64,000 nucleotides of DNA, taken from NCBI GenBank assembly GCA_951406725.2, contig OX597821.1, positions 23,622,001-23,686,000 on the forward strand. Reading direction: 5' to 3'. Source of the stretch: Octopus vulgaris (taxonomy: Eukaryota). How positions within the stretch are numbered: position 1 is the first letter of the stretch; every line of letters begins with the position of its first letter. The position numbers were made by a program, and so were the translations under genes. Below the pieces are notes generated by a model that searched no databases, was not told where the DNA came from, and saw nothing but the letters and a program-made list of their open reading frames with translations. This document shows, in pieces, positions 12,838 through 61,107 of the stretch.

Positions 12838-13111
12838 CACACACACACACACACACAGACACACACACACACACACACACTCACACATAAATAAATATAC
12901 ACACAGACACACATACACACTCACAAATATATATATATATATATATAAATGGACCATAAACAAAACTTGACTTAAACAGGATTTATATAATCCTATCAGG
13001 TGGTGCTATTAAGTTAGATATGACCTGGACCTATCTTTGATCGAAACATATCAGGTATACATATATACATACATATCTAAGTTATATATATATATATATA
13101 TATATAATTAT

Positions 13112-13289
13112 AGTCCGTATGTATCACTTAGGTTTTCGAGGGAGGATGACCTCCCTTTGCAAATAACACAAGGGCACTGAAATTGTGTCTAAGGCCAGCT
13201 GGAGACGTCGATCTCCTGGGGCTAAAAGCGTCAGTAACACCCACCCCCAGTGGCTAGCCACATTCAGATGGCTAGTACACTTTACGTTA
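13112..13289 (+). repeat. Structured dispersed repeat (copy A)
   Basis: Aligns end to end with 51827-52004; four predicted hairpins. Confidence 0.85.
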
Positions 13290-14280: not shown

Positions 14281-14436
14281 AGAGTGGTTGTGTGGTAAGT
14301 AGCTTGCTAACCAACCACATGGTTCCGGGTTCAGTCCCACTGCGTGGCATCTTGGGCAAGTGTCTTCTGCTATAGCCCCGGGCTGACCAATGCCTTGTGA
14401 GTGGATTTGGTAGACGGAAACTGAAAGAAGCCTGTC

Positions 14437-14489
<53 letters not shown>

Positions 14490-14715
14490 CGTGTTTGTGT
14501 GTCTGTGTTTGTCCCCCTAGCATTGCTTGACAACCGATGCTGGTGTGTTTACGTCCCCGTCACTTAGCGGTTCGGCAAAAGAGACCGATAGAATAAGTAC
14601 TGGGCTTACAAAGAATAAGTCCCGGGGTCGATTTGCTCGACTAAAGGCGGTGCTCCAGCATGGCCGCAGTCAAATGACTGAAACAAGTAAAAGAGATAAA
14701 AGAGAAAGAGAGAAA
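14281..14715 (+). mobile_element. SINE family A (tRNA-like head, internal TA/TG microsatellite, aaagag tail)
   Basis: gagtggttgtgtggtaag..ggttcagtccc..cttgggcaagt..(TA)n(TG)n..gcggtgctccagcatggccgcagtcaaatgactgaaacaagtaaaagag; many copies in the window. Confidence 0.93.
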
Positions 14716-27560: not shown

Positions 27561-27630
27561 AGTCGCACTATCGGATGCAGTTTAAAGTCTTAAATGTATA
27601 CATGCATGCATACATGCATACGTACATATG

Positions 27631-27824
27631 CTCTCTTACTCTCTTACTTGTTTCAGTCATTTGACTGCGGCCATGCTGGAGCACCGCCTTTAATCGAGCA
27701 ACTCGACCCCGGGACTTATTCTTTGTAAGTCCAGTACTTATTCTATCGGTCTCTTTTGCCGAACCGCTAAGTGACGGGGATATAAGCACACCAGCATCGG
27801 TTGTCAGACAATGCTAGGGGTCAA

Positions 27825-27863
<39 letters not shown>

Positions 27864-28034
27864 CATATATACGACGGGCTTCTTTCAGTTTCCGTCTACC
27901 AAATCCACTCACCAGGCTTTGGTCGGCCCGAGGCTATAGTAGAAGACACTTGCCCAAGGTGCCACGCAGGGGGACTGAACCCGGAACCATGTGGCTGGTA
28001 AACAAGCTACTTACCACACAGCCACTCCTGCGCC
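27631..28034 (-). mobile_element. SINE family A, full length
   Basis: Reverse complement of family A consensus from ggcgcaggagtggc to the aagag tail. Confidence 0.93.
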
Positions 28035-28421
28035 TATATACATAATGCATACATACATGCATGTATACATACATACATACATACATACATACATACATAC
28101 ATACATACATACATACATACATACAAGTGGTAACCTTGGTGGAGGCCGGTTTAGAGAATGGAAAAAAAAAGGTAGATACAACTGTAATTACACCTGTTGA
28201 TATATGGCGGGATGGCGGCGAAGTTGGGTGGATGAACAGTTAGTTGTATGGATGATAGCAGGAACGGAAGAAAGGAAAACAGACAGAAAGATCGAAGGGG
28301 AAAATAAAGAAAACGAAGAAATCAATAAGTAAATGAAAAAAAAAGGAAGAAAGAAAAGTGGAAGAAAATCAAGAAAAGGAAAAAAAAGAATAATAGATAG
28401 AAATAGAGAATTGAAAGAACA

Positions 28422-37454: not shown

Positions 37455-38496
37455 TACGTATGTATATATTTGTATAATGTATTGTAAATTCGTATATGTA
37501 AGCGCAAGCGTGACAAACCACATAGTTCCGGGTTCAGTCACCACTACGTGGCACCTTGGGCAAGTGTTTTCTACTCTAACTCTGGGCCAACCAAAAGATT
37601 GTGAGTGGATTTGGTGGATGGAAATTCATCGTGTATGTGTGTGTGTGTGCGTATGTATGTATGTATGTATGTGTGTATGTATGTTTGTATGTATGTATGT
37701 ATGTATGTATGTATGTATGTATGTATGTATGTATGTATGCATATATTTATATATTATTCATATCATTATATGATCGAACACCACGCATCCTTTTCCAAGT
37801 AAGTTTTATCTTAATAATCATGATGCGCACTCTTCTATCTCTATTATCTCTTCTCCGTCTCTCTCTCTCCCTCTCTTGTTCTTCATCCTTTCTGGTTTTC
37901 TCTCCCACCCTTCCCTATTCTTCTCCTCTCCTCTTCACCGTTCCCTCTCTCTTACTCCTCCTCCTCCTCCTCCTCCTCCACGAATCTCTCGTCATTGACA
38001 CGTGATCAGAGGGAAGCCATCTTTCCAATTGCTATCTTCACCAAGAACAGACCAGCTTATCCTGTCTCTTTCATAAGCTGTTTCCTTAAGCGTTCACAAT
38101 AATTTTTTAAACCTAAAAACTAGAGCCAGCACTTAGAGTTACGACGTTTTGTCTATGTAAACAATGTGATCGATAACATAAAAATGGGTAACGGGTGTAC
38201 ATGCATCTTTCTGGAGTTCTTGCTTCTTCTTTAGCACCACATTCAACCCATTGACCAGCCACGAACTCATTGCTTCAACAGCCACCAGATTTAGTGATAT
38301 CACAACTGGATATACATAATATGTAAAATATACATATTTTACATATTAAACACATTCCTGGTCACATATATGTACGTATTATTATAACTACAAAGTATAT
38401 TAAAGGTTCATTAGTCAACAGAGTGTCCAACCTGTGTTAGCAGTGCTATTCAATCACTTTTTAAAGTTGTCTTTACATATTTCTACAGAAAACCAA

Positions 38497-38907
38497 GGCG
38501 TAGGAGTGGCTGCGTGGTAAGTGACTTGCTTACTAACCACATGGTTCCGGGTTCAGTCCGACTGCGTGGTACCTTGGGCAAGTGTCTTCTACTATAGCCT
38601 CGGGCCGACCAAAGCCTTGTGAGTGGATTTGGTAGATGGAAACTGAAAAGAAGCCCGTCGTATATATGTATATATATATATATATATCTATGCATGTGTG
38701 TGTTTGTGTGTCTGTGTTTGTCCCCCTAGCATTGCTTGACAACCGATGCTGGTGTGTTTATGTCCCCATTACTTAGCGGTTCGGCAAAAAGAGACCGATA
38801 GAATATGTACTGGGCTTACAAAAGAATAAGTCCCGGGGTCGAGTTGCTCGATTAAAGGCGGTGCTCCAGCATGGCCGCACTCAAATGATTGAAACAAGTA
38901 AAAGAGT
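38497..38907 (+). mobile_element. SINE family A, full length
   Basis: ggcgtaggagtggc... to gaaacaagtaaaagag; a diverged copy follows at 38996-39431. Confidence 0.93.
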
Positions 38908-40785: not shown

Positions 40786-41003
40786 TATATGTGTATATAT
40801 ATATATGTATATATATACATACATATATGTGAATGCATGCTTGTGTGTATATGTGCATATGTTTGCGTATTTAAGCCTGTGTATGCATGTATGCATATAT
40901 TTTGCCATATATGTACATGTATATATGTGTGTGTGTCTATACTGAAAGGTGTAGGTGTGCGTGTAACCTATAAATGCTGCTCTGTATACTCATATTTGGA
41001 TGT

Positions 41004-41230
41004 ATACTCTTTTACTCTTTTACTTGTTTCAGTCATTTGACTGCGGCCATGCTGGAGCACCGCCTTTAATTGAGCAACTCGGCCCTGAGACTTATTCTTT
41101 TGTAAGCCCAGTACTTATTCTATCGGTCTCTTTTGTCGAACCGCTAAGTAACGGGGACATAAACACACCAGCATCGGTTGTCAAGCAATGCTAGGGGGAC
41201 AAACACAGACACACAAACACACACACATAC

Positions 41231-41266
<36 letters not shown>

Positions 41267-41421
41267 GACAGGCTTCTTTCAGTTTCCGTCTACCAAATCC
41301 ACTCATTGGTCGGCCCGAGGCTATAGTAGAAAACACTTGCCCAAGGTGCCATGCAGTGGGACTGAACCCGGAACCATGTGGCTGGCTAGCAAGCTACTTA
41401 CCACACAGCCACTCCTGCGCC
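41004..41421 (-). mobile_element. SINE family A, full length
   Basis: Reverse complement of family A. Confidence 0.92.
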
Positions 41422-42174
41422 TATGTGTCTTTCTCATAAAAATATATTTTATTTACTTTTCCAAGGACGTGCTTGTCATTACTTTCTCCCTAATAGTTGT
41501 TGCTGACCTTATATGTGTATATATATAGTGTATATATATATATATGAATGTATGACTATATAATACATTTATACACACACACACACACATACACACACAC
41601 ACACACACACACATACACATATTCATTAGCATCTACCTCTCTATACATACATATTTGTATAATATGTATATACTTATGCCCATAACATATAAATATATGT
41701 ACATATATATATATAAGCACACACACTGTTTGTGTAGGTATATACTATGTGTATATGAGTCTGTATCTTCTCTGTGTGTGTGCGCGCGCGCGTGTGTGTG
41801 TGTTTGTATGTGTGTGTGTGTGTGTGTGTGTGTATGTTTAAAAATATATGTCAGTTGATATATCTCTTTCCTGTCGTGTAGGCAGTAACTGCTGCACAGA
41901 GGGGACAGATGCAATACGACACTGTTGCACATTGTTGCATATATAGAGAATAAGCGTTCCTAGCATAACGGTCAAAGTGTTGCGCAGTGGAACCATTGTC
42001 ATAGATGTCTGGATATGTGTATTGTTTCAATTATAGAGCGTGGGTGCTGTTAGTGGTAGCAGCGATGAAGGTGAGCAGCTGTTGTAGGTGTTTGTAATAC
42101 GGCTACTAATACTGTGTTTGTATGTATACACACACACACACACACACACACAATTCTGTTGCCTCTGCTAGATA

Positions 42175-44053: not shown

Positions 44054-44530
44054 TATATAAACCATAAAAAATCAGGCGGTATTAGATATATATACTTATC
44101 TTTACGACTTGTTATCGTTAGGATTACGGCTGTTTCGCACCCTTCATCGCGTAATAATAATTTTAGTGTATGATAATTTATTTTACATATCTGCACCAAT
44201 ATGCATGCTACACATTGTACAATACAATCGTACATTAACAAATCAATGCAGATAAAGAAGGCTAGTACATCAGATCACCATGGTTACATCTATCCTTCAA
44301 CTCTGCATATACATGCAAAAGGAAAAGTTTATCTGCATTGATTTGTAAATGTACGATTGTATAGTATAATGCGTAACATGCATATTGGTGCAAACATGAA
44401 AAATAATTTAATATACACAGAAATTCTGAGGTGATGAAGGCTGCGAAACGGCTGTAACTCTAAGGATAATAAGTGGTTAGATAAACATATTCGTTTCTCA
44501 TATCTCATGACTTTTTATGGTTTATACATA
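44054..44530. repeat. Diverged ~200-bp inverted repeat (fold-back), Penelope pLTR-like
   Basis: Arms 44054-44256 and 44328-44530; both contain gatgaagg..gcgaaac.gc.gta. Confidence 0.8.
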
Positions 44531-46619: not shown

Positions 46620-48220
46620 GAGTATGGTAGTGTTGGAAGGTAGGGCAAGTTTGGCAGCGTGGGCGGGAGCAAGGGAACTAGCCTGGTTAGGAGGTGGGGT
46701 TAGGGAAGAACTTTGGACCAGGAGGTCATGTAGGTTGTGTGCTTGTTTGAAGGAGCGGATGCGAGGAGAGAGAGAGAGCAGATGCTCAGTCCACGGAACG
46801 TGTTGTGGCAAGGGCGGTGTAGAGGTGAGGGCATATCCACCGAGGATGAAATGGTGAGTCATGAGCTGAGACTGAGTCTCAAAGTCATGATTGTCACTGC
46901 AGAGCCTGCGCAGACGGAGGAATTAGGAGTAGGGGATGGAGAGCTTGGTGTGGGTAGAGTGGGAGAAGGAGAAGTTGAGGTATGAGTGTGAGTCGGTGTG
47001 TTTGTTGTAGATGGAGGTAATGAGAGCGGAGTTGTGTGTGTTAACCGAAATGTCAAGAAAGGCGACAGAAGTGTTGGAAATGGTACAGGAGAATTCGAGG
47101 GCAGGATGGAAGCATTGGACAAAAGAGAGGAAGGAGCCTAGTTAGGGTTAGGGTTACCCTTCCTCGCACCGATACAGTCATCAATATAACGACCGTATAG
47201 TTCGAGAGTGGGACCAGTGAATCTTGAAAATATTTTGGGCCTCAACGTAGCCAACGAACAGGTTCGCATAGTTGGGGCCCGTTCTCGTTCCCATGGCCAC
47301 TTCCGATAATGTTGGTAAAACTCACTCGCGAATGAGACTCTTGATATCAAGAGTGAAGAGAAGATTAGAAGGGCCAGGAGGGAAGGAGAAAGAGTTGAAA
47401 AGACGAAGAGCGTGGTTACTGTCGTGGATGTGTGAGAGGAGGGAGGCCACTAGAGGGCATGGACACGGTCAAGGTATTTCGAGATCAGTTCCGTGTGACA
47501 GTTACAGGCGGAGACGATGGGACGGCCAGGGTTGTTGGGCTTGTTGATTTTGGGAAGGAAGTAAATGATGAGAGGGCAAGGAGTGCGGACAATGAGGCTG
47601 GAGATCATGGATAGTGGAGGACACAGTCTGTTGATCGCTAGGTATGGGGTTGGGGTGTATATGGCAATAGAAGGAGGTTTCGTGAAGTTGACGGAAAGCT
47701 TCAGCCTTGTAGAGGTCTGCGCACCACACCACCACGACTCCACCCTTGTCGTCCGGTTTTATGATAATGTCTTTGCGGCGTCGGAGACATCGAAGAGCCG
47801 AGAGTTCGGCTGGAGAGACGTTCAGATGTCGGGGACGCCTGCGAAAGTCAAACCGATCCACAACACGTTGGCAGATGCCCGCAAAATGATCGACTGCATG
47901 GGACAGGCCGGGAGCTGGCGTCCAGTGGGATGGTCGGCGGCCCAGATCGGTGAAGCACTCTTCTTCGTTAGATGCAGGTGGAGTGTTGTGGAGTAGTGCA
48001 TATAGCCTTACACGGCACACAAGGCTATGAATATCAGCACGGATCTGAAATTCGATACTGGGTGGAATGAGGGGGATGAAGCGCAGACCCCTACTGAGAA
48101 GAGAGCGTTCCGCCTCAGAGAAGTGGTAGATCAAGAGGAATGGCAGCAACAGACTGATGTGGGAAGGGGATAGATGGGTTAGATGTGGGAGGGGTGGTGG
48201 GGAGTGGAAGGCTGGGAGGA
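46620..48220 (-). pseudogene. Penelope-like element (Neptune-type) RT, frameshifted and internally deleted
   Basis: LLSRGLRFIP, DIIIKPDDKGGVVVVW..YKAEAFRQL, YFLPKINKPNNPGRPIVSAC, YGRYIDD, then NLHDLLV and a Cys-rich linker. Confidence 0.9.
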
Positions 48221-48609
48221 AAGAGAGGAGCTCCTAAGTTATGGCGACGTAAACAAACCAACACCGGCTATCAAGCAGTGGTGGCGGTGAGGGGGATAAA
48301 CACATACACAAAGACAAATGCGATCACACACACACACATATGTATATATATGCACGATGGTCTTTCGCTTTCCGTCTACGAAATGCATTCACACAGCTTT
48401 GATCGGTCCGGGGCTATTGTAGATGACACTTGCCCATGGTGCCATACTGTGGAATAACTTCCTCAATTCACAGGTTGCCGTTCTAGAAATTGTTCAGATA
48501 CAACACACCACCCAGTCTAGGAACCGAACTCCTGACCTTATGATCGTAAGCCCAACACACCTAACCCCCTAGGGTATACCAAGCTAAACAGCAACATAAC
48601 ACCAACAAG

Positions 48610-51103: not shown

Positions 51104-51271
51104 TGCGTGGCATCTTGGGCAAGTCTCTTCTACTATAGCCTTGACCCAACCAAGGCCTTGTGAGTGGATTTGGTTGACGCACTTCTTTCAATTTGCGTCA
51201 ACCAAATCCACTCACAAGGCCTTGGTTGGGTCAAGGCTATAGTAGAAGAGACTTGCCCAAGATGCCACGCA
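51104..51271. repeat. Perfect 78-bp inverted duplication of a family A SINE segment
   Basis: Arms 51104-51181 and 51194-51271, 12-nt spacer. Confidence 0.95.
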
Positions 51272-51783
51272 TCTATATATATATCGAAGGATGACTAGGA
51301 AAGTAGGGCATGCAGTCTACCCATCCCCACTGAGGTGTGTGTGTGTGGGGGGGGGTGTCCAAGTGTTCCACCCTTCCCTGTTTTCCGTGAAAAGTATAGT
51401 ATTATACATGTTTTGAGATATAGGAAGTCTGAAAAGGAAAATAGTTTCGCCACCTACGATGCACCGTTTTGAAGTAGTTATATGTACGATAAACGTACAT
51501 ATAACTCTGGAAATCACCTTCCAACAATTTCATCCAGTAGGAGCTATTCAAGCCGTCGTCTTTGAGAAAATAGTCGAAATTTGGAATAAAATTCGACATT
51601 CACGAACTCTTGAAGCTGATTGAGAGAGTACCAAATTAAGTGAATGTGTATAACAATGTACAACTTCTGTTAGTAACGTAGCATTTCTGCCTTTACTGAC
51701 ATCGACTTGTCCCCTAAACGTGTGGTTACTGGGAAAAACATTAAATAGATATTCGCAAACAGGTCTCTCCTCATCGAAAACCG

Positions 51784-52004
51784 GTGATTACCGTACGCTG
51801 ACAAGGGGCAAAAACCTCGAAACTGCAGTCCGTGCGTATCACTTAGGTTTACGAGAGGGGATGACCTCCCTTTGCAAATATCATAAGGGCACAGAAAGTG
51901 TGCCTAAAGCCAGCTGGAGACGATGATCTCCTGGGGCTAAAAGCTACAGTAACACCCACCCTTAGTGGTTAGCCATATTGAGATGGCTAGTATACTTTAC
52001 GTTA
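51784..52004 (+). ncRNA. Hammerhead-like motif followed by a structured dispersed repeat (copy B)
   Basis: gtgattacCGTACG-CTGACAA-GGGGcaaaaaCCTC-GAAAC-tgca-GTC-CGTGCGtatcac; downstream matches 13112-13289. Confidence 0.55.
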
Positions 52005-52458
52005 CATTATTATTATATATATATATACATATATATATATATTTTACACACACACACACGCGCACACATAAATATATATGTGTATGTATTAAGCTATGTA
52101 TTTAGCGCTTAATTTGACGTAGATTGTTGTCAGAGGGTACTTTAACTTAAAGGTACAATACTCAGCTGGTATTCGAGGTATGTGAGCTCGAGTCCCGTGT
52201 CTGTTGACAACTTTTTTTCCATCTTATAAGGGTAATAATACCCGATCTTTCTGCTAATTTCACGACTATACTGGGTTCGAAATATTACCTTCTCTGTATA
52301 ATACGATACACCTAGCGGTTCGGCAAAACAGTTCGATATAATAAGTACTAGGCTTACAAAGAATAAGTCCTGGAGTCGATTTCTTCGACTAAAGACGGTG
52401 TTCAAATGACTGAAACAAATAAAAGAATAAAAGAAATATGTGGTTATATATATTCACA

Positions 52459-52629
52459 GACGCAGGAGTGGCTGTGTGGTAAGTAGCTTGCTAACCAACC
52501 ACATGGTTCCGGGTTCAGTCCCACTGCGTGGCATCTTGGGCAAGTGTCTTCTGCTATAGCCCCGGGCCAACCAATGCCTTGTGAGTGGATTTGGTAGACG
52601 GAAACTGAAAGAAGCCCGTTGTATATATG

Positions 52630-52664
<35 letters not shown>

Positions 52665-52867
52665 TTGTGTGTCTGTGTTTGTCCCCCTAGCATTGCTTGA
52701 CAACCGATGCTGGTGTGTTTACATCGCCGTCACTTAGCGGTTCGGCAAAAGAGACCGATAGAATAAGTACTGGGCTTACAAAGAATAAGTCCCGGGGTCG
52801 ATTTGCTCGACTAAAAGGCGGTGCTCCAGCATGGCCGCAGTCAAATGACTGAAACAAGTAAAAGAGA
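52459..52867 (+). mobile_element. SINE family A, full length
   Basis: Near-identical to 14281-14715. Confidence 0.93.
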
Positions 52868-59163: not shown

Positions 59164-59230
<67 letters not shown>

Positions 59231-59781
59231 ACTTATAAATAAGGGCAAAAAAAAATTTTTAATGCCAAATATGCCGAAAATTGGACATATTGTCCATTAC
59301 CATATAATTTATCACAATACGCACGCTACTCGAAAAAAAAAGCCGACAGAAATTTCTAAAAATTCCATTATTACCATATCGGACCGATTTCAGGGTTAGT
59401 TCGTGAAAACCTCCCTTCGTCAGTGATAAATGTGGTAAAGAAATAAATATTTATTTCATTTATTTCTTTACCACATTTGTCACTGACGAAGGGAGGGTTC
59501 TTACGAACTAACCCTGAAATCGGTCCGATATGGTAATAATGGAATTTTTAGAAATTTCTGTCGGCTTTTTTTTCGAGTAACGTGCGTATTGTGATAAATT
59601 ATATGGTAATGGACAATATGTCCAATTTTCGGCATATTTGGCACTAGAAATTTTTTCGTTTGCTCTTATTTATAAGTTGTTTATAATTTTAACCGTTAAA
59701 GGTATTTTTTAATATGCTGGCCATTGATAAAATTTTTTTTTTCGAAATATTTATATATAAATATTTTAAAATATATATATA

Positions 59782-59986: not shown

Positions 59987-60659
59987 CCTTGCAGTGGATG
60001 AGCACCCCACAGACACGCGAAGCCTTAACGTAGTTCTCAGGGAGATTCAGCGTGACACAGAATGTGACCAGGCCGGCCCTTTGAAATACAGGCACAGCTC
60101 ACTTTTGCCAGTTAACTGAACTGGAGCAACGTGTATATAATTACATTAATTTTTTTTATATACATCGAATGGCTGTGTGGGCCCAGGTGAGAAAAATAGG
60201 TCTCAAATGAGTTGATAGGCAAAAAATGATTGGGAATATCTGATACAGGGTCAGTGATAAGAGCAAATATAGTCCTTGGGCCTGTTGTTATTTAGTGCCG
60301 GGTCAAAACTGGTCCAACAAATTGCGAGCATTCATTGTATAAATGTAATCTCCCCCCCCCCCACCTTCTCTGTTTCCTTCTCTTTTTCTGAAGAGTGCGT
60401 TTACGTGTGCATATATGTTCTTTATCTTTTACTCATTTTACTTCGAGCTCCTTGCAGTTTCCGTCTACCAGATCAACTCACAAAGTTATGGCCGGTCCAA
60501 GGCTATAGCAGTAGACACTTGCCCAAGTTGCCACGCCGTTGGTTTGTACTGGAGCCATGCGCTTGGGAAACAAACTTCTTACCACACACCTATATATATA
60601 TATGTGTGTGTGTGTGCATAATATAATATAAATAATAATATAAATAATATAAATGTATA

Positions 60660-61063
60660 GGCGTAGGAGTGGCTGTGTGGTAAGTAGCTTGCTAACCAAC
60701 CACATGGTTCCGGGTTCAGTCCAACTGCGTGGCACCTTAGGCAAGTGTCTTTTACTATAGCCTCGGGCCAAACCAAAGCCTTGTGAGTGGATTTGGTAGA
60801 CGGAAACTGAAAGAAGCTCGTCGTATATATGTATATATGCGTGTGTGTGTTTGTGTGTCTGTGTTTGTCCCCCTAGCATTGCTTGACAACTGATGCTAGT
60901 GTGTTTATGTCCCCGTTACTTAGCGGTTCGGCAAAAGAGACCGATAGAATAAGTACTGGGCTTACAAAAGAATAAGTCCCAAGGTCGAGTTGCTCGATTA
61001 AAAAAGGCGGTGCTCCAGCATGGCCGCAGTCAAATGACTGAAACAAGTAAAAGAGTAAAGAGT
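60660..61063 (+). mobile_element. SINE family A, full length
   Basis: ggcgtaggagtggc... to aaaagagtaaagag. Confidence 0.93.
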
Positions 61064-61107
61064 ATATGCATATGTACATACATCTATATGTATATATATA
61101 TGCATAT

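What the first reader, a model, noticed from the sequence alone, without database searches (positions are those of the whole stretch)
51784..52004. Core-variant hammerhead heading a structured two-copy element whose other copy starts at the cleavage site
Seen: type I hammerhead topology. Stem I is CGTACG/CGTGCG extended by GTGAT/ATCAC, the core reads CUGACAA, stem II is GGGG/CCTC, then GAAAC-UGCA-GUC with a palindromic loop III; predicted cleavage is after C51830. The downstream ~175 nt folds into consecutive hairpins (GGCAC/GTG[CT]C, GGAGA/TCTCC, [CT]TAGCCA/TGGCTAG and a GGGAGG/CCTCCC-type stem). A second copy at 13112-13289 begins within 4 nt of the predicted cut, and in these hairpins the differences fall mostly in loops or keep G-U pairs. 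Known: hammerheads occur in retrozymes and Penelope pLTRs, whereas LINE 5' ends usually carry HDV-like ribozymes; the canonical core is CUGANGA, so the G8-to-A change should impair cleavage unless tolerated. Inference: either a retrozyme-like RNA or a LINE 5'UTR processed by a hammerhead variant.
Basis: partly seen in the sequence, partly recalled or inferred. Interest (0 to 1): 0.75.

Follow-up and report, generated by a model that had tools for sequence, protein, structure and literature searches.

The report
Penelope-borne hammerhead retrozyme, mutated copy
This is one copy of a non-coding jumping repeat, present in thousands of copies, that carries a predicted self-cutting RNA motif; the odd core seen here is a mutation found only in this copy, and the shape of the family's insertions suggests that Penelope-type enzymes likely paste it in.

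Summary
The hammerhead and second copy are real, but both headline claims fail. CUGACAA occurs once in the genome against 128 UUGACAA matches: the family carries the published U3-A8 core, and this copy has a private U3C change that likely breaks it. The second copy keeps the GUC upstream of the cut. Family-wide, 5' ends ignore the cut (1 of 50 stop there, 2.5 expected). The element is a ~355-nt non-coding head-to-tail unit with thousands of dispersed copies. Its type I hammerhead covaries, and loop III stays palindromic in four versions, as expected for a dimer. Copies end at two fixed sites 47 nt apart (187 of 212 segments). Two-armed insertions usually use one site per arm (40 of 61), with target duplications in AT-rich DNA. 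This is the Penelope 'tail' footprint. Best reading: a non-LTR retrozyme mobilised in trans by a Penelope-type enzyme, probably from a circle. Cleavage, circles and the partner element were not shown. Large subfamilies with impaired-looking cores also spread. The scan has reported this kind before, probably this family (e1-8670037).

The parts
51722..52003 (+). 5'-truncated copy (282 nt, unit positions 75-356) of the ~355-nt retrozyme-like unit, subfamily A
51784..51842 (+). Type I hammerhead motif; predicted cut after C51830
51798..51804 (+). Core CUGACAA; C51798 is a private change from the family's U3, leaving C3 opposite A8 (51803)
51822..51829 (+). Self-complementary helix III / loop III (ACUGCAGU), predicted to pair between two units
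51748..51883 (+). Predicted long interrupted rod extending stem I; competes with the local GGGAGG/CCTCCC-type hairpin
   Evidence: not recovered in the alignment consensus
51888..51990 (+). Downstream hairpins GGCAC/GTGCC, GGAGA/TCTCC and TAGCCA/TGGCTA
51995..52003 (+). Fixed 3' end, site 1 (inferred reverse-transcription start), followed by AT-rich DNA
13109..13288 (+). Second copy, subfamily B, 5'-truncated inside helix III; keeps GTC 13113-13115; ends at site 1

Best explanation
The window holds two truncated copies of a ~355-nt non-coding head-to-tail repeat with a type I hammerhead motif, a non-LTR retrozyme that is likely copied into the genome in trans by a Penelope-type reverse transcriptase/GIY-YIG endonuclease. 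Steps: (1) inferred: loci with two or more units are transcribed. (2) Predicted: two hammerheads pair through the palindromic helix III and cut out a unit-length RNA, whose ends are held together by the extended stem I and are joined into a circle. A lone hammerhead in the circle would be near silent. (3) Inferred from shown insertion shape: the enzyme makes a staggered cut of about 9-13 nt in AT-rich DNA and primes from both ends, at two fixed sites 47 nt apart. Copying runs through the cut site and beyond one unit, leaving two opposed arms with random 5' ends and a target duplication. (4) Shown: the window copy's C3 is private; inferred: this copy's ribozyme is impaired.
For: Unit and permutation. 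Abundance: 2475 first-look candidates, 838 exact matches to a 31-nt 3' pattern. 3' ends: site 1 111, site 2 76, other 25 of 212 segments; 88% AT in the next 15 nt against 63% in the loci overall. Two-arm insertions: 40 of 61 pair site 1 with site 2, 1 pairs site 1 with itself, 0 site 2 with itself; duplication of 8 nt or more in 38 of those 40 (19% in shuffled pairs); non-simple ones 18 of 40 against 1.5%. This matches the two start sites, tail and AT-rich target of Poseidon in vitro (PMC11167929) and the inverted arm with tail on one end (Craig preprint). Covariation on 70 hammerheads: 94.6% of cells paired, 8 of 20 pairs with compensatory change; 3-8 pair U-A 39, U-G 21, C-G 8; loop III G-C 45, A-U 23. 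Older subfamily D has CUGAUGA (13 of 14 rows) and loop UCGA (20 of 30). A natural dimer folds into the double hammerhead as its minimum-energy structure. Circular units fold at z -5.4 to -6.6. Arms and tandem units share rare variants: 29 of 78 and 10 of 41 pairs against 35 of 600 controls. The genome holds young RT+GIY-YIG elements with intact 781-aa frames that also show two 3' ends and a U3-A8 hammerhead.
Against: No cleavage, ligation or circle was observed. No autonomous element sharing sequence with the unit was found among 50 Penelope loci; tail likeness to the 781-aa family is not significant (p 0.19). Read-through of the cut fits an uncleaved multimer as well as a circle. Tandem units within one arm differ by 4.0% against 6.1% between insertions, and some insertions mix variants (L035, L027), which points to more than one template in some cases. 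Subfamilies with impaired-looking cores are abundant, so cleavage may not be needed. The long rod was not recovered by the alignment consensus. Covariation counts are inflated by relatedness: they rest on a few subfamily-level events. In the vertebrate preprint only 1 of 9 predicted dimers cleaved in vitro.
Confidence: 0.78

Rival explanations
1. Same element and same Penelope carrier, but the template is an uncleaved linear multimer from a few master arrays, and the hammerhead is an inherited, largely dispensable passenger.
For: Cores with U3.G8 (68 of the first 100 listed of 520 matches) and with C4 plus a C.A mismatch at the base of stem II (71 of the first 100 listed of 172) amplified widely. 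Hammerhead mutants do not block Poseidon insertion in vitro. A 10-unit array exists (L201).
Against: Compensatory changes in stems I and II, the 3-8 pair and the loop III palindrome across subfamilies 73-86% alike imply selection on the fold. Natural U4C variants stay viable in a viroid. The 10-unit array has near-identical units and a 3' flank like that of single-copy L011, so it looks like a local expansion.
Confidence: 0.3
2. The copies are truncated ends (pLTRs) of an autonomous Penelope element not yet sampled.
For: The end anatomy is the same as in autonomous elements. Most Penelope insertions are 5'-truncated.
Against: Upstream of the hammerhead the unit runs into its own tail; 20 of 88 unbiased segments exceed one unit. 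No frame adjoins a copy; the Penelope frames near copies in L199 and L202 are separated from them by TA runs.
Confidence: 0.08
3. A LINE 5'UTR processed by a G8A hammerhead, so that copies start at the cut.
For: One window copy begins near the cut.
Against: 5' ends are not enriched at the cut; G8A with C3 is unique; the fixed ends are 3', followed by target DNA.
Confidence: 0.02

Closest known systems
Metazoan non-LTR retrozymes (mussel 350-390 bp, axolotl 330/350 bp, coral; PMC7229834, parts 2-4 of 6 read; vertebrate survey bioRxiv 10.64898/2026.07.22.740005, parts 1-3 of 5 read, supplements not seen)
   Same: Non-coding unit of ~355 nt, GC 43%, type I hammerhead with short helix III and palindromic loop, tandem copies, target duplications longer than 4 nt, Penelope elements in the same genome.
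   Different: Mostly dispersed 0.3-1.5-unit insertions with opposed arms rather than arrays; U3-A8, U3.G8 and C4 cores; no pLTR homologue found here, unlike 24 of 57 Xenopus families with database homologues; cleavage and circles untested.
Endonuclease-bearing Penelope-like elements (Poseidon PAc, PMC11167929, parts 1-2 of 4 read; structure passages in 10.1101/2021.04.23.441226)
   Same: Two 3' ends bounding a tail, inverted truncated arm, tail on one end, AT-rich targets, hammerhead whose cut site does not mark copy ends.
   Different: No reading frame; tail 47 nt against 30-40; first end lies 172 nt after the cut.
U3-A8 hammerheads of Schistosoma Cercyon elements (PMC4209133, parts 1-2 of 4 read; PMC3088659, passages)
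   Same: Same compensated 3-8 pair.
   Different: Here the motif has canonical 6-bp stem I and 4-bp stem II with a 2-bp helix III, and one family spans C-G, U-A and U.G.

Membership tests
Non-LTR retrozyme | Type I hammerhead in each unit | tested here: met
   the window copy's own 3-8 pair is broken
Non-LTR retrozyme | Head-to-tail units of 150-450 bp | tested here: met
   353-357 nt; partial tandems common, one 10-unit array
Non-LTR retrozyme | No protein coding; GC under 50% | tested here: met
   no significant match of the unit to Penelope proteins; 154 of 357 G+C
Non-LTR retrozyme | Target duplications longer than 4 bp | tested here: met
   38 of 40 two-site insertions; none clear at the two window copies
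Non-LTR retrozyme | Self-cleavage, better as dimer | not testable with these tools
   only predicted
Non-LTR retrozyme | Expression as unit-length circular RNA | tested here: inconclusive
   only assembled contigs of runs guessed to be RNA were available
Autonomous Penelope-like element | RT plus GIY-YIG reading frame | tested here: not met
Penelope-mobilised insertion | Two 3' ends with tail; inverted arm; AT-rich target | tested here: met
Penelope-mobilised insertion | Sequence shared with the pLTR of an autonomous partner | tested here: inconclusive
   none in 50 sampled loci out of 6136 first-look GIY-YIG candidates
LINE 5' ribozyme | 5' ends at the cut, coding body downstream | tested here: not met
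Active hammerhead (window copy) | Watson-Crick pair between positions 3 and 8 | tested here: not met
   C3 opposite A8, 1 of 129 exact matches

The most novel reading that the evidence does not exclude
A Penelope enzyme writes both arms of each insertion from one small RNA circle, starting at two fixed sites, and the family is a natural mutational series of the hammerhead core (C3-G8, U3-A8, U3.G8, C4, with or without the first pair of stem II) in which the dimer-pairing palindrome is always kept while catalytic strength is traded away. The ribozyme would then be tuned for slow, dimer- or protein-dependent cutting that protects the circle.
Probability: 0.3. Interest if true: 0.65.

Novelty: new member of a known kind. 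Interest (0 to 1): 0.4.

Why it matters
How animal retrozymes get into genomes is open: the 2020 paper proposes Penelope enzymes and the 2026 preprint supports this by co-occurrence and pLTR likeness. This family adds a footprint of mechanism (two start sites, opposed arms, staggered duplication) and gives exact start sites that can be tested with purified protein, as was done for Poseidon. Its subfamilies supply natural core variants for asking whether cleavage is needed. Standard CUGANGA descriptors would miss the U3 and C4 subfamilies. I found no paper describing cephalopod retrozymes in searches 'hammerhead ribozyme'+'octopus', 'retrozyme'+'cephalopod' and 'octopus'+'Penelope' (PMC13282606 main text has no 'ribozyme'). 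Repeat libraries and supplements were not seen and may already hold the family.

Tried and rejected
G8A as a tolerated family variant: rejected. 5' ends at the cut: rejected. Rfam: no hammerhead on the focused stretch; the whole-window scan listed only 150 of 381 hits, all microRNA models on simple or inverted repeats. Partner search: blastn and a profile of the unit against 50 Penelope loci found only further non-coding copies and family E. The L199 copy near a Penelope frame is a separate, older insertion. Written-back A-to-I editing (lead from e1-8807236): no A>G excess on the RNA strand in A (0.0031 vs T>C 0.0028, p 0.70); B shows a T>C excess instead (0.0015 vs 0.0048, p 0.004), unexplained. 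Expression: no RNA holder listed on record; contigs of four guessed-RNA runs cover the unit but cannot show ends, strand or circles, and no silent control stretch was laid. Alignment fold did not recover the long rod. Counts merged some TA-flanked segments by a deduplication slip; one search replaces them. The 118 hammerhead rows came from the earlier set and include 8 rows from one array. Przybilski and Hammann 2007 and Lunse 2017 were not held; what I say of U3.G8 and C3.A8 activity is recalled or inferred from the C3G and G8C results.

Full report
Observation. The hammerhead elements lie at the stated coordinates and a second copy at 13109-13288 aligns at 87.6%. The window is G000:C8:23622001-23686000 in a 2.8-Gb genome of 227 contigs. 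The window is repeat-rich; its frames of 150 aa or more are mostly microsatellite read-throughs.

The core. The 29 other best copies all read TTGACAA. Exact 20-nt patterns give 1 match with C3 (the window itself) and 128 with U3. U3-A8 is a published natural covariant (PMC4209133; PMC3088659). Single changes at 3 or 8 abolish cleavage in a Penelope hammerhead and the double change partly rescues it (PMC11167929), so I infer that the window copy is impaired.

The unit. Upstream of the hammerhead the sequence continues about 135 nt and joins its own 3' end: the unit is 353-357 nt, head to tail. The window copy covers 51722-52003. Subfamily A (window copy 1) and B (copy 2) are 86% alike; an older subfamily D is 67-82% alike to A. 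A distantly related 360-nt family E was found by profile search (E 5.5e-11). First-look candidates number 2475, 2022, 2619 and 2710 for the four queries; these overlap and are not copy numbers.

Structure. On 70 of 79 distinct hammerhead regions (9 with indels left out), 94.6% of cells pair and 8 of 20 pairs show changes on both sides; no shuffle of 500 reached the covariation score, and slid controls pair at 22-54%. These cells are related, so they reflect a few events: G-C to A-U and C-G to U-A in stem I, G-C to A-U in stem II, and three states of the 3-8 pair. Loop III is UGCA in A and C, UAUA in B, UCGA in D (20 of 30) and CAUG in E (29 of 32 rows), always self-complementary. A natural two-unit stretch of L201 folds with the two helix III strands paired to each other. 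Circularised units fold at z -5.4 to -6.6 (60 shuffles each). In single-sequence folds stem I extends into a long rod that would hold the cut ends together; the 37-row alignment fold kept the local GGGAGG/CCTCCC-type hairpin instead, so the rod is unconfirmed.

Ends. In loci L001-L160, 212 distinct segments end at site 1 (111), at site 2 47 nt further on (76) or elsewhere (25) (left out: L047, five pieces captured in another repeat, three duplicates in L121). The unbiased set came from the first 100 of 838 matches to a 3' pattern. In it, 3 of 99 5' ends fall within 5 nt of the cut (3.1 expected). Of 88 site-anchored segments, 50 reach the cut, 1 stops there (2.5 expected), 20 exceed one unit and 3 pass two cut sites. 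Of 61 two-armed insertions 40 combine one site-1 and one site-2 arm; 38 of the 40 have a duplication of 8 nt or more, and 18 are non-simple against 1.5% in shuffled pairs. Family E shows the same with ends 59 nt apart. This is the signature described for Penelope elements.

Carrier. GIY-YIG matches are abundant (148 matches, 6136 candidates). A young family with a 781-aa RT plus GIY-YIG frame has two 3' ends about 38 nt apart and a U3-A8 hammerhead. Its linker carries a cysteine motif of the kind described for Neptune and Nematis; no tree was built. It shares no significant sequence with the unit, so the partner is unidentified.

Template. Arms of one insertion and tandem units of one arm share rare variants far more often than controls (29 of 78, 10 of 41, 35 of 600). 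This fits one template molecule or one source locus and does not separate a circle from a uniform multimer. Some insertions mix variants.

Is cleavage needed? B-type cores have 520 exact matches, 68 of the first 100 listed with U3.G8 (counted by hand). C-type cores have 172, with 29 CUGAAGA, 61 CCGAAGA and 10 UCGAAGA among the first 100 (counted by hand), and an unpaired C.A at the base of stem II, which D shares. U4C lowers activity in vitro but supports viroid infectivity. Either weak cleavage suffices or the ribozyme is partly dispensable.

Verdict. A new member of the non-LTR retrozymes with a clear Penelope insertion footprint. The flagged core variant is a private mutation on a known U3-A8 background, and the start-at-cut claim is chance. 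Earlier notes of this scan describe the same kind (37 findings) and probably the same family; I looked at them after reaching this reading (one search states it), and they are not independent support.

Noticed in passing
L204:440-990 (G000:C13, about 22.648 Mb); L241-L270: Family E: a young 360-nt hammerhead unit (UUGAUAA core, CAUG loop) with two 3' ends 59 nt apart; its end region resembles that of family A (p 0.001 against shuffles).
   Followed up: partly
L201:3260-6880 (G000:C4, 13.62 Mb): Ten-unit array with intact U3-A8 hammerheads and near-identical units; its 3' flank resembles that of single-copy L011, suggesting local expansion.
   Followed up: partly
L016:2307-2369, L094:440-503, L123:857-919, L147:2134-2197: A 62-nt piece of the unit's 3' end sits inside another dispersed repeat whose ends look Helitron-like (label recalled, untested).
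   Followed up: no
L191, L192: Young Penelope family with intact 781-aa frame, a preceding frame of 333-359 aa, a minimal U3-A8 hammerhead and a ~38-nt tail.
   Followed up: partly
window 51104-51271: Long near-perfect inverted repeat built from a common short repeat, 450 nt upstream of the element.
   Followed up: no
window 59223-59685 and 44056-44526: Two further long self-inverted stretches (93% and 74% in self-alignment).
   Followed up: no
window 47502-48233 (-): 243-aa open frame that reads like a piece of a retroelement protein; not searched.
   Followed up: no
window 14282-14704, 27594-28045, 38496-38907, 41003-41425, 52444-52867, 60625-61101 and others: Many copies of a ~420-bp dispersed repeat, SINE-like by size; no tRNA gene called.
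   Followed up: no
subfamily B copies: Private changes show T>C above A>G on the RNA strand (p 0.004); unexplained.
   Followed up: no
L121 (G000:C1:94.32 Mb): One B copy repeated four times with its flanks at ~1385-bp spacing, a local tandem duplication.
   Followed up: no
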